Assembly (NCBI GenBank): GCA_951406725.2 | Contig: OX597818.1 | Coordinates: forward strand, 113,026,001-113,090,000 | From: Octopus vulgaris | Lineage: Eukaryota | DNA: 64,000 bases | Reading direction: 5' to 3' | Shown here: piece after piece, positions 5,593 through 59,609 of the stretch | Numbering within the stretch: the stretch's first letter is position 1 | Layout of the letters: each line of letters starts with the position of its first letter | Made by a program: the position numbers and the translations under genes | The notes under the pieces: model-generated | Databases searched by the model: none | The model's input: the letters and a program-made list of their open reading frames with translations, nothing else | What the model was told of the DNA's origin: nothing

Positions 5593-7124
5593 AGTTTCTT
5601 TATTGGCCACACAGGGCTGCACACAGATGGGACAAAATACAAGGTAGAGCTCTTCTTTTGGGGGATAAAAAAAAAACAAAAAACAAAAAACAAGAGAAAC
5701 AAAAAAAAATTGCGTAGGTTTTCGCTCAAAAGGGATCGTGAAAGGGGAAAAAAGGAGAAAAAAAGAAACAAAAGAAGAGAAAAAGGAAAAAAAGAGGAAT
5801 AAAGAGGAAAAAGGGGGAAGAGAAAAAAGCGATCAATAGGGATCGTGTATCACAGTGTCATGATGTACGGTGTAAAGGGGGAAGCAGATAAGGTTTATCC
5901 GTGGGAAGAAAAGCCTACGAAAAAGACCACGTTAACCTCGGTCAATATTGTTATATGTTACCACATTTGTTTGCAAGTGGGTAACCCTCTGTTTTCAATT
6001 TCTGGGTTCATAGGACTATGCTCAAGGTGGCTTCGTCATTCATACGTGCCATCCTTGCTACATTCACCCATCTTTTTTTAAATCATTCGCTAGACAAAAC
6101 TTGCCTCTCTACTCTCACTTTCCTTTTCAAGTGGTACTTGAAGAAGTTGATGAGAAATTGACCAGAGAGGAAAGTGTTTGTCTTCAATCCTTTCAGACGC
6201 GTCCACCAGATACGTTCTTTCGCCATAGCCACAAGGATGATGAAAATAGCTCTTCCTTCCCGTTTGAAGGAAGGAGGCGTGACAATATTAACGATAGACT
6301 CAGCTGATAAACCGACTCGTCCCACACGTGACAGCAGTTGTTCTACATAAGCCCACAGGTCGGAAATTGTTGGACAATGCACGAGTGCGTGCAGAACGGT
6401 TTCGTCGCTCTGACCGCATATAGGGCAGGTCGGCCCCGTGTTTCTCGAGCCGTGTCTGTAGAGCTTATCCCGACCGGGTAGCGCTTCTCGGTAGCACTGC
6501 CAGGCCAGGGATCTCTGGAAGTTGTCCATGGGCCCTGGCCCGAAAGTCGTCCCGAACAGACGGGTCAGGTATTCCTCGTCGACGTCCAGGTTCGCCCCGA
6601 GCTCGTCGTCGTACCTCCCCTCCACTAATCTCCTATAGAATGCTTTGGTTGTGATGGAGTCACACAAGGTCGATCCAGGACGGCAGAGTTGCTTGAGAGC
6701 AACGCGACACTCGCGGTGCCATTCGCCCTTCCTCGGCCTCTTTTTGATCTACGACTGCAGTTCGGTCATGGAGATGAGTTGCGGGAAAGCGTGCCCCACA
6801 AACGGCGACCAGACCTGTTCACCGTCGTCTCCGAAGAGCCTGAGATGTCGCAGTCTCAGCGCGTGTCTGCGCATCATCAACTACGGCATGCCCAGTCCTC
6901 CTTTTAACGGGTGTTGACGGCAAATGGATCGCCTGACCATCGGGACGCATCCTTTTCACAAGAAGCGAAAGAGAACGCGTTCTAGTTTGGTGATGGTAGG
7001 GTCGGGACAAGGCACGACGGTCAGGCGGTAGTAGATGACGGACGCGATGTACGTGTTCGCCACCTCCGCCCGACCTTTTAGTGACAGTTTCTTTCGGCCC
7101 ATTGCCGGGCGAGAGTGACCAAAC
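5593..7124 (-). mobile_element. 5'-truncated Tx1/L1-like non-LTR retrotransposon within (GATA)n
   Basis: GC-rich island; ORF2 remnants [25 protein letters not shown] and CPICGQSDETVLHALVHC (C-terminal CCHC knuckle); 3' UTR ends aataaagaaact and runs directly into (TATC)n. Confidence 0.85.
6083..7120 (-). pseudogene. Frameshifted C-terminal part of Tx1/L1-like ORF2 (post-RT region and zinc knuckle)
   Basis: Track ORFs 6083-6667 and 6956-7288 (non-microsatellite part) lie in different frames. Confidence 0.8.
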
Positions 7125-19484: not shown

Positions 19485-19552
<68 letters not shown>

Positions 19553-19601
19553 AAACAAGTCAAAAATAGAAAATGCTAAAATAATTTTATAGTGAACATT
19601 T

Positions 19602-19639
19602 CAGTACCGGTTTCGGTCATTTTGAGACCTTTTCAACTG
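19602..19639 (-). ncRNA. Minimal type I hammerhead ribozyme, U3:A8 core variant
   Basis: cag-TTGAAAA-ggtc tcaaaat gacc-GAAA-ccgg-TA-ctg. Confidence 0.75.
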
Positions 19640-19997
19640 TAACGATTAAATAATTAAATTTAGAAAAATTAGAAGAAAAGTTTTTTTAAAGGAATATTTC
19701 TATAGTAGTGTTCAGATATAAGTGGCATTCTGCCTTTCTCTGACTCCCTTGTTTGCACTTGTGTGTTCGAGGTCGTTGTGAGTTCTTGGTAGGGTAGTAG
19801 AGGAAGAGGGCTGGTGAGGAAAGGGGGTGGGAGAATCTGGGAGTGCCCTGATGGTCGTATTTTGAATGGTCAGTGGCGGCTGGCAGTCTCAGTTCAATTC
19901 AGGAGAATATTTATATTGACAGGCTTGTTTATAGAATTAGCGTAGGTGTTATACTAAAAAACATTAGTGACAAAGTTAAGGGGTAGGGGGTGGAGAA

Positions 19998-20234
19998 GTA
20001 GAAGAAGAAGAAGAAGAAGAAGAAGAAGAAGAAGAAGAAGAAGAAGGAGAAGGAGAAGATGACGATGATGGTGATGGTGGTGATGATTATGACGACGATG
20101 ATGATGATAATGATGATGATGAAGAAGAAGAAGAAGAAGAAGAAGAAGAAGAAGAAGAAGGAGGAGAAGGAGAAGATGGTGGTGATGATGGTGGTGATGA
20201 TGATGACGACGATGATGATGATAATGATGATGAT

Positions 20235-20267
<33 letters not shown>

Positions 20268-20275
20268 AAAAACAG
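19998..20275. repeat. Compound (GAA)n/(GAT)n tract, duplicated, inside the PLE 3' UTR
   Basis: Read directly from the sequence. Confidence 0.9.
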
Positions 20276-20397
20276 AGAAGGGAGAATATGAATGGGTGTA
20301 AATATAGCTATGAAGGGGCTGATTAGTAATGGATTCTATGGAGTGTAATATTTGTGTGTGTATATATATTTTTCTTTTATTCTAAAGTTGAGGTATA

Positions 20398-21764
20398 TTA
20401 ATTGTTTGTCGTAGACCCGTTAAGAAGTGGCTTGTATTTTGTAATAAAGAGATTTTCTTTACTTATTCGTTGTCTCGAGGTTGTATCGTCCCTAAATTGG
20501 TAGAGGGGAAAATTCTGAAGTTTGGTGTTTTTTTGTTGGCGCAAGTATCTATGTGTTGGCTAAAAGCTATTTTTCTGTTTTGGGGAATTTTTATCTGGGA
20601 TCTGTGCAGGGCCATTCGTTTACGCAAACCATTTTTTGTTTGGCCTATGTACTGCTCTTGACACCCGGAGCAGGTTAGTGAGTATATTAGGTTCTCCGAA
20701 GCACATGTGAAGTTGCTTTTCACTGTAAACCGTTGTCCCTGTTTGAAGGAGAACTCTGATCCCTCAATAAGATAGTCGCATATCCCGCAATTGGGTCTTC
20801 CACATTTTTTTACTGTCGGCTTCTGTGTTGAAGAGTGAATTCGGGCTTGTGTAAGGAGACTTTTCATGGATCTAGGCTGTCTTTTGCTTTTTATGATCGT
20901 GTGTGTTTGGAGGATTGTGTTCATTCTGTGGTCTTTTTTTAGGAGGGGTATGTTGTGGAGGATGGTGTCGAAGGCTTCGTTATTGAGAGGGTTGTGTGTG
21001 GAGATGTATGGTAAGGCTTTTGGTTGTAAGTTTTTCTTGGATTTGGGATGTCTCAGTTCCTTGATGTTAAGTTGAACGGCACGTTGAATGCACTTGTCAA
21101 TAAGTGAAGGTGGATAGTTCCTGGTGATTAGGGTATCTTTTAGTTCTTGTAGTCGTGTGTCTCTGGTGTTTGCGTTAGAGACTATAGTGCATATCCTTTT
21201 TGCTAGATTGAAGGGGATATTCATCCTGGTGTGTCTGGGGTGGCATGAATTGAATGGAAGATATTGCTTAGAGTCTGTAGGCTTATAGTATATGTCTGTT
21301 TCTATTATATTATTAGCTTTCTTAATGAGGATATCGAGGAAGGGGAGTTGTTGTTGGCTATATTCCATCGTGAATTGGATGTTTACGTCCAGTCCGTTTA
21401 AAATTTTCTGGAATTCTATGAGTTTTTCTATATTTTTATGCCAAAGGATGAAACAGTCATCTAGATATCTCTTCCAGTTGTTTTCTATGTAGATGGAGAA
21501 AGGGCTGCCATATCTTTCTAGAACCTTACGATACAGACTGATCTCTAGGTATCCTATGACTAGGTTGGCAAAGGAGGGGGCCATTCGTGTACCCATCGCA
21601 GTCCCCGATTTTTGTCGGTAGAAGTTGTCATTGAAGGCGAAGAAGTTATTTTCCAGGATGAATTTAACCCCTTCTATCACAAATTCTTTTTTGATGCGGT
21701 GTGGTAGTTCGTTGGCGTGATTCTCTAGCCAGAATTGGATTGCCTCTAGTCCTAGGTTGTGGGA

Positions 21765-21766
<2 letters not shown>
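20398..21766 (-). pseudogene. PLE reverse transcriptase / GIY-YIG endonuclease, N-terminally truncated, one frameshift near 20505
   Basis: [56 protein letters not shown]; after the frameshift YQF..KENLFITKYKPLLN..stop at 20398. The N-terminal part of the 511-aa track ORF is microsatellite. Confidence 0.92.
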
Positions 21767-21839
<73 letters not shown>

Positions 21840-24041: not shown

Positions 24042-24901
24042 CTATGTATGTATGTATGTATGTATGTATGTATGTATGTATGTATATACACATATATACA
24101 TGTATGCATGCTTACGTACACATACACATGTGTGTGCACAGTCAATTACAGGATCTCTGTCTGTGGATTTCACCTAATTCTCTCTTAAGCGTCTTTTTAA
24201 ATTCAAGTACATACTCCCTTGAAGATCATAGTTATTCTTACCATTATCACCACAAGCAGCAACATCATCATGTTCACTAGCGTCGCCGCCATCATCACCA
24301 ACAGCAACAGCAACGCCGTTTTCATCATATTTGTAGACATGCGAATCTTTTAAATGCATCATATTTGTAGACATGCGAATCTTTTAAATGTAACATATTA
24401 CTCTCTAACTGAAATGATGAGTAAAAGAAATATCAAACAAAATCACAATAATGCAATGTGTAATGTAGAGTTTAAAACCAAATTACGATTCTTACAGCGA
24501 GTCGTCTTACTTCACCTTATATAACCAATATCTCTTGTATATTTATCGGTAGCTGCCATCTTACGTGAGCTGCGCTACAATTTCTTGAATGCACTATTGA
24601 CATGTTCGATAAAGTGAGTGCAAGTTATACAGCGCGGTCGATTTAATCAATAATACCAATCTTCAAGAAATGTGTGACGTGTATTCATATAAGAAATCAA
24701 TGTGTACCATAGATATGTTATGTAACGCCATGGTTGCAAAGGAGATGTTTTCCAATCTATAACCTCTGTACAGTTATTTAACATAAATTATTTCACATGA
24801 ATGGGTATTAATTATTTGTTACAATAAATGTTAAATAGAACGTCAAAAGGACGCTCCGAGGTCAACTCCACTACGTGACATCTTCGCATGTATATATTTA
24901 A

Positions 24902-24935
<34 letters not shown>

Positions 24936-24937
<2 letters not shown>

Positions 24938-25452
24938 TGATAAATTTAGGAAGGACTTGATAAAAATATTTAAGGATTTCGGCCTGTTCGTAACGATTAC
25001 CAACAACTGGACTACGGTCGATTTCTTGAACGTAACCTTAGACCTGAATAAGAGCAAGTATTGTTCGTACAAGAAGCCTAACAGGGAAACAATATACATC
25101 CACGAGGGTTTAACCCATCTCTCCGCTGTAAATAAAAACCAGGTTTCAGGCATTAGTAAGAGACTCTCTGATCAGCCAATAGAAAGGCATTTAACAAGGC
25201 CTCCCGACTACAACGATGCTTTGGCTAGAAGCGGGTTTCCCGAGAAGCTCACGTACGTGGATCACCCCCAAGCAACTTCTTCTCTCACGAAAAGGATTGG
25301 AAAAAGGAAAATTATATCATATAACTCTCCTTTCAATTTAGAAGTTTCTTCTAACGTGGCTTGAGGTTTCCTGTCGTTAATTAAGAAACACTACCCCAGA
25401 AGCCACAAGTATTACAAACTCTTCACCCCAAAATTATCAAGTGTGTGTCCAA

Positions 25453-29923: not shown

Positions 29924-30162
29924 TTATATGCGTGTGTGTGTATGTGCTTATGATTGTGTATGTGTTTGTCCCCCCTACATCACTTGAAAACGGATGCCGG
30001 TGTGTTTACGTCCCTGTTACTTAGCGGTTCAGGAAGACAGATCGATAGAATAAGTACTAGGCTTACAAGGAATAAGTCCAGGGGTCGATATGTTCGACTA
30101 AAGGCAGTGTTCCAGCATGACCGCAGTCAAATGAATGAAACATGTGAAAGAATAAAAGAATA
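29755..30162 (+). mobile_element. SINE family A
   Basis: cacatggttccggtttcagtcccactgcgtggcaccttggg through the tail. Confidence 0.85.
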
Positions 30163-30179
30163 ACCTTGTTTATAGTTTT

Positions 30180-30402
30180 CCTTTCTTTATCCTCTTATTT
30201 GTTTCAGTTATTTGACTGCGGCTCTACTGGAGCTCCGCTTCTAATCGAACATATCGACCCAAGGACTTAGCATTTGTAAGCCTAGTACTTACTCTTTTCG
30301 TTCTCTAGGGTTCGATGACGTAAACACACCGACATCGGTTGTCAAGCGGTGGTAGTGGACAGAACAGTCAGACACACACATGCAGATATATATATATATG
30401 TG

Positions 30403-55584: not shown

Positions 55585-56271
55585 GGTACTATGGGAGATT
55601 TAAAAGACAAATCTCCCACAATACCGTCAAATTCCATTCAGTTGCCACATAGACTCTTGCGCTAGAAATAAAAATCCCAAATCCCAAAGAAAGAATCAAC
55701 AAGGAGAATCTTTTTGTTGAAAAATTCCAAACGCTTCTTAATATGCAAACTCCACGGTGACCGTATTCTTTTTTCTAGCATCCTGTCTGACAAAAGATAG
55801 ATATAAGCATTCTGTTTGACAAAAATCCCAGCTTTCCAATTAAAGAGTATAAAATCCACAGAATTGTCTCACCTTACTCACAGGAACTGGATAACTCCTA
55901 CCCCATTTCCTGTTTTGACACACAAACATCCAACCTGTTCAAACAAAACACTACACCAAAACACATGCACCCTAATCCTCCAAAGAGGTTTTTCCAAGGA
56001 CTAATATAGAACTCTAAAAACATAGAGACACTGCAATGTATTGATATACTTAATAATTAATTTTTGTATATATTCATTATTTTTTTTAAAAAACATTGTA
56101 CATTTCTTTTTCCCATTCCTCAATTTAAAAAAATATATTCCCTTTCAAATCTTGAAAATTTGCCTTGCAATGAAAGCCGTTCTGATTTCGTTTTTTAATT
56201 TTTCATACACCCATTTTTATTAAAATTTACTTTCAGTGTAGCATTCTGCCTTATTATTTTTTTGCTCTCCT
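55585..56271 (+). mobile_element. 3' fragment of a third Neptune-like PLE family
   Basis: QYRQIPFSCHIDSCARNKNPK and KERINKENLFVEKFQTLLN align to the GIY-YIG C-termini of the other two PLEs; ends in (TA)n. Confidence 0.72.
56147..56188 (+). ncRNA. Decayed hammerhead with UUGAAAA core
   Basis: aaatc-TTGAAAA-t ttgc ctt gcaa t-GAAA-gccg-TT-ct-gattt. Confidence 0.5.
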
Positions 56272-56367: not shown

Positions 56368-56534
56368 GAAAGTTGGTTTGTGAAAGCACGTGGGTGAGTA
56401 TATAGAAAATAGTAAAGAGTGAAAAAACGACAGAAGGATTAAATGTTAAAAATTATATATATTTGCGTCAATATGTCTGAAGAATATTAGAAAATTAAAA
56501 AAAAAAGGTTTTTCCTTTATAATGACATAATTAA

Positions 56535-56573
56535 AAGAAAGACCGGTTTCGCGTGTAGCTTTTCAAATTTCTT
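56535..56573 (-). ncRNA. Minimal hammerhead, U3:A8 variant, in the inverted pLTR
   Basis: aagaaa-t-TTGAAAA-gc tacac gc-GAAA-ccgg-TC-tttctt. Confidence 0.72.
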
Positions 56574-56910
56574 GTGACGTTATGTTTATGTTGAATAGAG
56601 TTATCGTTGTGTTTATGTTCCGGATAGTTCTAAATAAGGGGAGGTAGTGGGTGATTTCTTCCGGTGTAAGGGAGATAATCGCTTAAAATTTTTTTTGTTT
56701 CCCTTAATGTGAATTTCTCTGTATCAGTATGTTCGGATGGTTGAGTCTGGGCTTGTACTTTTCAATGAAGAATGTTTCCTTGTTTAGTCTAATTTGTGTT
56801 GATGATCCGAAAGCACATTGGTAAAATGGAAAGATTAAAAATTGTGGTAGTAGTTGCTTTGCGCATTTCTCAATGTGCTCACTAAAAGGTATCATTCTAT
56901 ATTCTGGGAA

Positions 56911-58895
56911 CTTTCCCTACCATACTATACATAAACAGAAAGCTAACTCAAATTTTAACACTACACAATGGAAAGAACTGATAAAACTTCAAAATGATGA
57001 GGATATAACCATTAAGGAAGCAGACAAGGGAAATGCAGTTGTAATAATGGATACATCATACTACAGAAATCTTGTAATTTCCTTGCTTGATGACGACCTA
57101 CATTATGAAAAAATTACCAACTACACCCCACAAAAAATAATGAAAACTCTATCTTCACTAATTAAAACCCATGAAAAGGAACTAACAACCAAAGAGATTG
57201 ACTTCCTAACAAACTTTAAATGCAAACCTAGCCTTTTCTATGGTCTGCCAAAAATTCATAAAAGTCAAATTATAAATGAAACCATTAAAAAATCACCAAA
57301 GACATACATACACACACCTAACCCGGGGGACCTAAAACTACGACCCATTGTAGCTGGCCCAACCTGTGAAACACACAGACTAAGTTTATTTATGGACATC
57401 CTCCTGAAACCCTTCCTTAAACATATCGATAGCCATATCAGAGATGACTTAGATATGTTAAACCACCTTCCAAAAAAAGCCAAGGAAGAAACAATCCTGG
57501 TCTCATTTGATGTAGTTAACTTGTATACCAGTATACCTCATAATTATGGACTGGAGGCAATACAGTTCTGGTTAGACCAATTTCCGGAAGAAATACCAAA
57601 AAGGATCAGTAAAGAATTCATTACTAAATCAATTGAATTCATCCTACACAATAACCACTTCATGTTTGACAATACATTTTACCGTCAAAAATCCGGAATT
57701 GCTATGGGTACAAGGGCAGCACCAGTCATTGCGAACTTAACAATGGGATACATGGAAATAATCATTTACCAGGAATCTTTATCAATACATAAAAGAGAAT
57801 TGGAAACGATTCTTAGACGATTGTTTTATTCTCTGGAATGAAGACACAGATTAACTCCTAAAATTTAAAAACCTATTGAACAGCATAAACCCAAATATAC
57901 AGTTCACAATGGAATACAACCAAAAGGAGCTCCCGTTCTTGGATATACTAATTAAAAAAATAACCTTAAAATAGAAACAGACATCTTTTACAAAGCCACA
58001 GACGCCAAACAATACCTTCTTTTTAATTCATGCCACCCAAGACACACTAAAACAAACATCCCCTTCAACCTTGCAAGAAGGATATGCACAATAGTGTCAG
58101 AACAAAATACCAGGAACTTTAGACTGCAAGAACTCAAAAACACCCTAATTGACAGACATTACCCAGCTCAACTCATAGAGGATGGGATCAGACGTGCAAC
58201 AGAAATAAACATAGAAACTTTAAGAAAAGTTCAATACAACAACACACCTTCCCCGAAAATACTACCTTACATATCTACATACAACCCCAGAAACAAAGAA
58301 GCCTTCACCATCATCACCCAGAATTTACCAATACTTCATAAAAACCCCAAATTAAAGGAAATTCTAAACATACACCAAATCATTAAAAGCTACAAACAGC
58401 CTAAATCACTTAAAAAGATTCTCAAAAAGGCAAAATTGTCTTCTGAAATTACGGATGCAATAGTAAAAAAAATGTGGTAGATCGAACTGTGCAACATGTC
58501 CTAACCTGCTAGAAGGATCAGAATTCCTCTTTAAAGAGGGACAGAAATTCAAGATCAAATCTAACTTTACTTGTGCCTCTGAAAACGTAATTTATGTCAT
58601 AAAATACTCGGGCTGCCACCAAGACTACGTGGGTTCCACGGGACTATCACTCAGACGTAGATGCACACTGCATCGACAACAGATTGAATTCCCAGAATAT
58701 AGAATGATACCATTTAGTGAGCACATTGAGAAATGCGCAAAGCAACTACTACCACAATTGTTAATCTTTCCATTTTACCAATGTGCTTTCGGATCATCAA
58801 CACAAATTAGACTAAACAAGGAAACATTCTTCATTGAAAAGTACAAGCCCAGACTCAACCATCCGAACATACTGATACAGAGAAATTCACATTAA
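56911..58895 (+). pseudogene. PLE RT / GIY-YIG endonuclease, frameshifted (about 57780, 57960, 58470)
   Basis: IKEADKGNAVVIMD, FYGLPKIHK, LRPIV, SFDVVNLYTSIP, GIAMGTRAAP, RFLDD, CGRSNCATC, VIYVIK..YVGSTG, KYKPRLN. Confidence 0.92.
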
Positions 58896-59025
58896 GGGAA
58901 AGGAAAAAAATTTTTAACGATTATCTCCCTTACACCGGAAGAAATCACCCGCTACCTCCCCTTATTTAGAACTCTCCGGAACATAAACACAACGATAACT
59001 CTATTCAACATAAACATAACTTCAC

Positions 59026-59064
59026 AAGAAATTTGAAAAGCTGCACGAAAAACCGGTCTTTCTT
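59026..59064 (+). ncRNA. Mutated copy of the same hammerhead in the 3' pLTR
   Basis: ttgaaaagctgcacgaaaaaccggtc: the gcGAAA junction has changed to gaAAAA. Confidence 0.55.
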
Positions 59065-59609
59065 TTAATTATGTCATTATAAACGAAAAAAAATTTTTTT
59101 TTTTAATTTTCTAATATTCTTCAGACATATTGACGCAAATATATATATTTTTTAACATTTAAGCCTTCTGTCGTTTTTTCACTCTTTACTATTTTCTATA
59201 TATATATATATATACATACATATTGGTTGTTAATTTGCTTCATAAAATATTAGCAGTGTAAATAATGAGATCAAATGCGCAATGTTTTGAATTGTAATTA
59301 TTAGTTTTATTCACTGTGTCCCACGTGTGTTCTTAGTATACGGTTTTTTATGGCTGACATTTCCCGTGCTTTTGTTCAGTTAACCATCAATGACATGTCA
59401 CCTTAACGGCTTTAAGGCTTTCGGTCTTGGTAAGATAAAAATGTGCATGTAAATACATTCATATATTCATCTGTAAGTGCAAAATACATACATATGTTTG
59501 GGTGTGGGTGTGTACGCCTGTGTGTGTATGTGTATGAATATATATCTATGAGTATCTGTACGTATGTATGTATTCATCTACATATATATGTGTGTGTAAA
59601 TATATATAA

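What the first reader, a model, noticed from the sequence alone, without database searches (positions are those of the whole stretch)
19602..19639. Compensated non-canonical hammerhead core (UUGAAAA) shared by three related PLE families
Seen: families 1 (19602), 2 (56535/59026) and 3 (56147) all have TTGAAAA in place of CTGANGA, with different stems I and II; families 1 and 2 keep a palindromic ccgg stem III. Established: C3 and G8 form a tertiary Watson-Crick pair in the active hammerhead fold, and a U3:A8 double change preserves that pairing. Inference: covariation kept across divergent families indicates selection for an active, probably dimeric, lineage-specific ribozyme that a CUGA-pattern search would miss.
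Basis: partly seen in the sequence, partly recalled or inferred. Interest (0 to 1): 0.72.

Follow-up and report, generated by a model that had tools for sequence, protein, structure and literature searches.

The report
Swapped-core hammerheads that cut in vivo
Penelope-type jumping genes in this animal genome end in a small hammerhead RNA motif whose key core pair is U-A instead of C-G, a swap already described in blood-fluke elements; sister families use A-U and G-C, and copies of U6 RNA joined at the exact predicted cut site show that these variant ribozymes likely do cut in living cells.

Summary
The motif is real: a type I hammerhead (minus strand, 19602-19639) with a U3:A8 core and palindromic ACCGGU stem III, in the 3' pLTR of a Penelope-like element (PLE). 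It has 1,974 exact genomic copies. Corrections: 56535/59026 are two pLTRs of one element, 59026 is decayed, and three related families sharing U3:A8 show inheritance, not covariation. U3:A8 in PLE hammerheads is published (Cervera 2014), so it is not lineage-specific. Genome-wide the pair does covary: with an ACCGGT stem III, U:A 11,583, A:U 1,811, C:G 315, G:C 177. One family splits 84 A:U / 10 G:C / 6 others. U·G and C×A subfamilies also spread, so pairing is not strict. U6 snRNA is fused at the predicted cut in 14 loci of five family groups; two junctions led blind to unseen hammerhead families. This suggests cleavage in vivo, then ligation. Ordinary copies run past the cut, so they came from uncut RNA. 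Cleavage and dimerisation are untested. The scan noted the four-pair series (another genome) and U6 junctions (this genome and another) before; I found both before reading those notes.

The parts
19602..19639 (-). Family 1 type I hammerhead, U3:A8 core, ACCGGU palindromic stem III; predicted cut between 19605 and 19604
   Evidence: 1,974 exact copies; U6 fused at this position in 7 other loci of family 1/1b
19549..21767 (-). 5'-truncated family 1 PLE between (TA)n tracts: RT thumb, CX4CX2C linker, GIY-YIG (20463-21767), 3' UTR/pLTR, ending about 55 nt past the cut site
   Evidence: full-length relative L073 has a 784-aa ORF
56534..56573 (-). Family 2 hammerhead in the inverted 5' pLTR copy (U3:A8, 2-bp stem II, one unpaired U before the core)
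56399..59202 (+). Family 2 PLE: inverted pLTR 56399-56910 plus 5'-truncated broken RT/EN and 3' pLTR
59026..59066 (+). Decayed family 2 hammerhead in the 3' pLTR (G12 and C11.1 lost)
   Evidence: sequence
56147..56188 (+). Family 3 hammerhead, U3:A8 core, U·U at 10.1/11.1, stem III decayed in this copy
   Evidence: U6 fused at the family's cut in L337 and L340
55602..56260 (+). Family 3 PLE remnant (end of GIY-YIG and 3' pLTR)

Best explanation
The motif is a type I hammerhead in the 3' pLTR of a Penelope-like retrotransposon, with the tertiary core pair 3:8 written U-A, and it likely cleaves weakly in vivo after A17, probably as a dimer paired through the palindromic stem III. Shown: the anatomy, the copy numbers, all four Watson-Crick forms of 3:8 among PLE-related families, and U6 joined at the predicted cut. 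Inferred: selection keeps 3:8 paired and tolerates transition intermediates (U·G, sometimes C×A) but not transversion mismatches. Inferred: cleavage leaves a 5'-OH fragment that an RtcB-type ligase occasionally joins to U6, and the PLE machinery then inserts the chimera. Most insertions are copied from RNA not cut at the 3' hammerhead, so cleavage is a minority or side step rather than what defines the copy's end.
For: Counts with GAAACCGGTH, matches (reversed-pattern control): U:A 11,583 (97); A:U 1,811 (349); C:G 315 (45); G:C 177 (69); U:Y 257 (158); A:V 663 (880). U:A with a compensated ACAUGU palindrome: 2,826 (257). One family with 3 and 8 left free, first 100 of 121 listed: A:U 84, G:C 10, A:C 3, G:U 1, U:C 1, A:G 1; A:U and G:C copies form one endonuclease clade, 100/100. 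Hammerhead-blind GIY-YIG sample: 23 of 29 PLE loci show a motif, 22 U:A and 1 A:U. N7, stems I and II and the palindrome vary while the core stays. Dimer minimum-energy fold is a double hammerhead for families 1 and 2. U6 (Rfam match in 11 of 14 loci) is joined at the predicted cut in 14 loci, 11 of them from lists not targeted at that junction; none of 75 examined junctions hit elsewhere in 7 element bodies. Two blind tests: sequences after U6 led to a C3:G8 family with an ACGAUCGU palindrome and an A3:U8 PLE family with ACCAUGGU, both joined exactly after N17. RtcB needs a 5'-OH partner (PMC6789731 passages).
Against: No cleavage assay. Copy counts are dominated by a few families and are not independent events; the Fisher p of 2e-10 for one search counts one subfamily many times. 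U3·G8 subfamilies 94-98% identical in protein to window family 2 transposed, one with a 775-aa open frame; a C3×A8 tandem subfamily spread. Plain 5'-truncated copies are not clearly enriched at the cut: 16 independent against 8-9 in a matched control, p = 0.23. Family 1 copies extend about 55 or 90 nt past the cut. In an Anolis PLE, hammerhead mutants did not impair insertion in vitro and no RNA ends were seen at the cut (PMC11167929). Many U6 junctions in this genome lie at SINE-like 5' starts, so U6 may mark RNA 5' ends of any origin. Family 3 and A:U/G:C junctions have 1-3 shared T's, and L339 is off by 1-2 nt or ambiguous. No U6 junction was seen for family 2.
Confidence: 0.8

Rival explanations
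1. The motif is a catalytically dead relic. C3 to U and G8 to A are AT-biased drift inherited from one ancestor, and the fold is kept only for a structural role or not at all.
For: Window is 35% GC and both changes are GC-to-AT transitions. U:A is shared by related families. U·G and C×A subfamilies replicate. A13C occurs in two copies of one family. Cleavage is dispensable for insertion in vitro.
Against: AT drift does not yield A:U (two transversions from U:A) or G:C. G5, G12 and the C/G-rich palindromes are kept. U6 junctions sit at the scissile bond in U:A and A:U families.
Confidence: 0.08
2. Position 1.1 is an RNA 5' end for another reason (a pLTR transcription start or a protein nuclease site), and U6 is added by template switching of the reverse transcriptase rather than by ligation.
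For: Many U6 copies are followed by SINE-like starts, where ribozyme cleavage is not involved. Template switching cannot be excluded from DNA.
Against: The junction coincides with N17|1.1 in five family groups with different sequences and first bases (C, G, U). There is no extra G and no microhomology in family 1 or the two blind families. Both arms of fold-back insertions carry the same junction (L327, L328, L337, L341, L342, L350). Template switching alone would still need a 5' end at the cut.
Confidence: 0.1

Closest known systems
Minimal and small-palindrome type I hammerheads in pLTRs of metazoan PLEs, including the U3-A8 variant of Schistosoma mansoni Cercyon (Cervera and De la Pena 2014, PMC4209133; parts 1-2 of 4 read, supplement file 2 searched, file 1 not searchable)
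   Same: pLTR location, type I topology, palindromic stem III implying a dimer, U3-A8 core, many dispersed single copies, inverted pairs.
   Different: Here U:A is the majority state. A:U and G:C families also occur (not in the parts read). Stem II is short (1-6 bp) and mostly lacks the extra base after A9. U6 junctions give indirect in vivo evidence, which that paper says is lacking.
Natural U3:A8 hammerheads (Perreault et al. 2011, PMC3088659; passages read)
   Same: Natural U3/A8 covariation, described as already shown active in vitro; insertions near C3 and within GAAA are also described.
   Different: A3:U8 and G3:C8 natural families are not mentioned in the passages read; no PLE context.
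PAc Poseidon hammerhead of Anolis (PMC11167929; passages read)
   Same: PLE hammerhead in which engineered C3G/G8C partly rescues cleavage; uncut RNA is the main insertion template.
   Different: Canonical C3:G8; protein-assisted cleavage shown in vitro; no RNA ends seen at the cut in vivo.
U6/LINE-1 chimeras made by RtcB (Moldovan et al. 2019, PMC6789731; passages read)
   Same: U6 ending in 4-8 T's joined to retroelement RNA before retrotransposition.
   Different: L1 junctions are scattered; here they fall on one nucleotide, the predicted ribozyme cut.

Membership tests
Type I hammerhead ribozyme | Three stems around U4 G5 A6 N7 A9 / G12 A13 A14, A15.1-U16.1, H17 | tested here: met
   (Rfam HH9 19.7 bits, below the gathering score of 52)
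Type I hammerhead ribozyme | C3 and G8 identity (strict CUGANGA consensus) | tested here: not met
   U3 and A8; a described variant
Type I hammerhead ribozyme | Watson-Crick complementarity of positions 3 and 8 | tested here: met
   U:A here; A:U, G:C and C:G families; exceptions U·G and C×A
Type I hammerhead ribozyme | Self-cleavage after N17 | not testable with these tools
   Indirect only: U6 junctions at N17|1.1
Metazoan PLE pLTR hammerhead (Cervera 2014) | Located in the pLTR of a PLE | tested here: met
Metazoan PLE pLTR hammerhead (Cervera 2014) | Palindromic minimal stem III, unstable as monomer, paired as dimer | tested here: met
   ACCGGU, ACAUGU, ACGAUCGU, ACCAUGGU; closing stem III in the monomer costs 5.2 kcal/mol, dimer gains 7.5; computed only
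Metazoan PLE pLTR hammerhead (Cervera 2014) | Long stem II with an extra base between 9 and 10.1 (min-HHR consensus) | tested here: not met
   Family 1 has 4 bp directly after A9, family 2 has 2 bp; closer to the paper's small-palindrome variants
EN+ PLE, Neptune/Nematis type | Single ORF with RT, DKG motif and C-terminal GIY-YIG | tested here: met
   L073 784 aa, RVT_1 plus GIY-YIG (22.4 bits, cut-off 22.6)
EN+ PLE, Neptune/Nematis type | CX2-5CxxC linker between RT and EN | tested here: met
   [18 protein letters not shown]; definition from PMC8557442
EN+ PLE, Neptune/Nematis type | RT phylogeny with reference clades | not tested
   No reference sequences fetched; Neptune versus Nematis left open

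The most novel reading that the evidence does not exclude
One animal genome holds a natural mutational scan of the hammerhead 3:8 pair (U:A, A:U, G:C, C:G, with U·G and C×A as stepping stones), and U6 fusions are a fossil assay showing that the U:A and A:U forms, one with an extra U in GAAA, cleave in vivo and feed 5'-OH ends to an RNA ligase.
Probability: 0.65. Interest if true: 0.7.

Novelty: new variant of a known kind. Interest (0 to 1): 0.56.

Why it matters
Whether PLE hammerheads cut in cells, and what for, is open: activity in vitro is low (PMC4209133), cleavage was dispensable for insertion and no cut ends were seen in vivo (PMC11167929). Natural sister subfamilies that differ at 3:8 give ready-made test pairs, and U6 junctions give a genomic readout of cleavage. 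Practically, CUGANGA descriptors miss most pLTR hammerheads in this genome (0 of 23 in a protein-ascertained sample). The U3:A8 swap itself is not new.

Tried and rejected
1) Enrichment of plain 5'-truncated copies at the cut: 27 hits, 10 internal deletions, 17 junctions (16 independent, 2 of them U6) against 8-9 of 12 in a matched control, p = 0.23. A second control gave 0 but passes fewer flanks; a third was swamped by indel variants. Not used as support. 2) RNA data: no RNA holder listed; only contigs, which cannot show ends. The family is present in contigs of runs from organisms coded B-E, with no core change among the rows shown (16 rows hidden); not used as evidence. 3) A recurring A3×G8 repeat (L208-L215) has no stem I next to the core and no PLE protein match; excluded from the covariation argument but listed. 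4) A recurring CTGATAA match inflating the C×A count (L088, L216, L217) lacks stem I, and in L088 lies among LINE-type APE/RT ORFs; excluded. 5) The parent family of U6 chimeras L343/L344 was not found; L349 unresolved; none of the three is counted. 6) Not held in the library: Lunse et al. 2017 (PMC5785218), Przybilski and Hammann 2007 (PMC1986816), Nelson and Uhlenbeck 2008 (PMC2271363). The first may already describe A3:U8 or G3:C8 in PLEs. 7) The tree has unresolved deep forks and a midpoint root, so the order of 3:8 changes is not claimed.

Full report
Observation. The stretch 19602-19639 read on the minus strand is a complete type I hammerhead: CAG, UUGAAAA, GGUC-loop-GACC, GAAA, CCGG, UA, CUG. 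It lies about 830 nt downstream of an RT/GIY-YIG frame (20463-21767) in a 5'-truncated element flanked by (TA)n. The general pattern has 2 window matches and none in 100 shuffles. Rfam HH9 aligns at 19.7 bits, far below its gathering score of 52. The motif has 1,974 exact copies in the 2.8-Gb genome, control 0. A full-length relative (L073) has a 784-aa ORF with RT, DKG, a CX4CX2C linker and GIY-YIG, the Neptune/Nematis layout as defined in PMC8557442 (passages).

56535 and 59026 are the inverted and 3' pLTRs of one element (96% identical), and the 59026 copy has lost G12 and C11.1. Family 3 is a real third PLE family: 28 of 29 other copies have UUGAAAA, none CUGANGA, and its stem III is near-palindromic across the family although decayed here. 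Families 1, 2 and a fourth are about 57% identical in protein, so a shared U3:A8 among them is most simply inherited.

What is known. Cervera and De la Pena 2014 (PMC4209133, parts 1-2 of 4) describe hammerheads in PLE pLTRs, palindromic stem III, low dimer activity, and a U3-A8 variant in S. mansoni Cercyon with about 1,300 hits. Perreault 2011 (PMC3088659 passages) reports natural U3/A8 covariation and cites in vitro activity. The swap is therefore neither new nor lineage-specific. Searches for natural A3:U8 or G3:C8 returned only a passing G3-C8 variant remark (PMC3884650); an engineered C3G/G8C rescue is in PMC11167929. Three key papers were not held and one supplement file of PMC4209133 could not be searched.

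Does 3:8 covary? With the stem III fixed as GAAACCGGTH, matches (reversed-pattern control) are: U:A 11,583 (97), A:U 1,811 (349), U·G 430 (51), C×A 334 (53), C:G 315 (45), G:C 177 (69), U:Y 257 (158), A:V 663 (880) (gap 6-24 in four searches, 5-24 in the other four). G:D, C:Y and other stem III types were not counted, except U:A with ACAUGU, 2,826 (257). These are copies, not events. Three less biased views follow. (a) Thirty loci picked by the Pfam GIY-YIG model: one looks like a host nuclease (my recall), 23 of the other 29 show a motif, 22 U:A in three families and 1 A:U, none C:G; two are decayed and four show none. (b) One family searched with 3 and 8 free: of the first 100 of 121, A:U 84, G:C 10, A:C 3, G:U 1, U:C 1, A:G 1; A:U and G:C copies share flanks and one endonuclease clade at 100/100. 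(c) In the larger A:U family only 24 copies have a non-U at 8, spread over A, C and G. The tree used 50 rows; 10 duplicate or misassigned rows and 23 redundant family 1 and family 5 loci were dropped first; deep forks are open. Against strict pairing: U·G subfamilies 94-98% identical in protein to window family 2 have transposed, with both pLTRs carrying U·G and one 775-aa open frame, and a 360-bp tandem family has C:G, C×A and a U:A relative. So transitions pass through tolerated intermediates, while I saw no hammerhead-shaped family with a transversion mismatch in the 200 rows listed (one repeat without stem I excluded).

Dimer. Closing stem III in the monomer costs 5.2 kcal/mol; the two-molecule minimum-energy fold of families 1 and 2 is the double hammerhead, 7.5 and 6.1 kcal/mol better than two monomers; family 3's window copy and the 59026 copy do not give it. 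Palindromes differ among families (ACCGGU, ACAUGU, ACGAUCGU, ACCAUGGU). This is prediction only.

Does it cut? Family 1 copies end about 55 or 90 nt past the cut, so ordinary insertions used RNA uncut at the 3' motif, in line with PMC11167929. Prompted by note e1-9086993, I searched for copies starting at the cut. Plain truncations were not clearly enriched (16 against 8-9, p = 0.23), but two began with the 3' end of U6 snRNA. A U6 survey followed: 204 matches with 100 listed, 30 AT-rich followers, and 14 hits of a pattern aimed at the family 1 junction. I fetched 74 loci (the first 30, all 14, 30 picked by eye as not SINE-like) holding 75 junctions. U6 with five T's joins exactly at C1.1 in 7 family 1/1b loci (4 from untargeted lists), whose PLE parts differ. 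It joins at the cut in 2 family 3 loci (shared T's) and 2 loci of the A:U/G:C family (L338 within one shared T, L339 within 1-2 nt). Two unknown followers were tested blind. One led to a C3:G8 family ending GAAACGAUCGUA, junction exact in 2 loci; no RT was found in its 8 short loci. The other led to an A3:U8 PLE family with an extra U in GAAA, junction exact in 1 locus. A third blind test found no parent. No examined junction mapped elsewhere in 7 element bodies. Rfam confirms U6 in 11 of these 14 loci; the other three keep only a short 3' remnant. Several are fold-back insertions with the same junction on both arms, which suggests that the joint existed in the template. RtcB joins U6 only to 5'-OH ends (PMC6789731 passages), the end a hammerhead leaves, and it ligates cut retrozyme RNA in vitro (PMC7229834 passages). 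A four-term search listed no paper on U6-PLE chimeras among the 20 of 25 shown. Caveat: many U6 junctions here are at SINE-like starts, so template switching at any RNA 5' end remains possible.

Earlier notes of the scan. I read them after finding each pattern: e1-9970279 (four Watson-Crick forms, another genome), e1-8799442 (U6 junctions, this genome) and e1-8159350 (another genome) say the same. They are unchecked and are not counted as support.

Verdict. New variant of a known kind, interest 0.56.

Noticed in passing
L251-L280 and rows: Many U6 3' ends in this genome are followed within a few bases by what look like the 5' starts of several SINE families; route (template switch or ligation) unexplained.
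   Followed up: no
L035-L041, L087, L218-L223, L085, L206: Retrozyme-like tandem repeats of about 360 bp with hammerheads in C:G, C×A and U:A forms.
   Followed up: partly
L148:2677 and L154:2504 (element strand): A U3:A8 PLE family whose two sampled copies read GCAA for GAAA (A13C).
   Followed up: no
L375-L382: A3:U8 PLE family with an extra U after G12 and an 8-nt palindrome; some copies have 9-10 nt variants.
   Followed up: partly
window 56159/56171; L078, L101-L109, L121-L125: Several U3:A8 families close stem II with U·U at 10.1/11.1 instead of the usual G-C; others keep only a 1-2 bp stem II.
   Followed up: no
L208-L215: Repeat of about 170 nt with a hammerhead-like A3×G8 core and ACCGGT but no stem I and no PLE protein match.
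   Followed up: partly
window 24879-25364 (+): 161-aa RT-thumb-like fragment unrelated to families 1-3 and without a Pfam match; possibly another retroelement.
   Followed up: partly
window 6083-6748 (-): zf-RVT fragment of a LINE-type element (Pfam E 8.7e-8).
   Followed up: no
window 30066-30277: 212-nt imperfect hairpin scoring weakly to MIR841; likely an inverted repeat of a dispersed element.
   Followed up: no
L075, L083: Direct pLTR-hammerhead pairs 3.7-3.9 kb apart with no PLE ORF between them; possibly non-autonomous elements carrying cargo.
   Followed up: no
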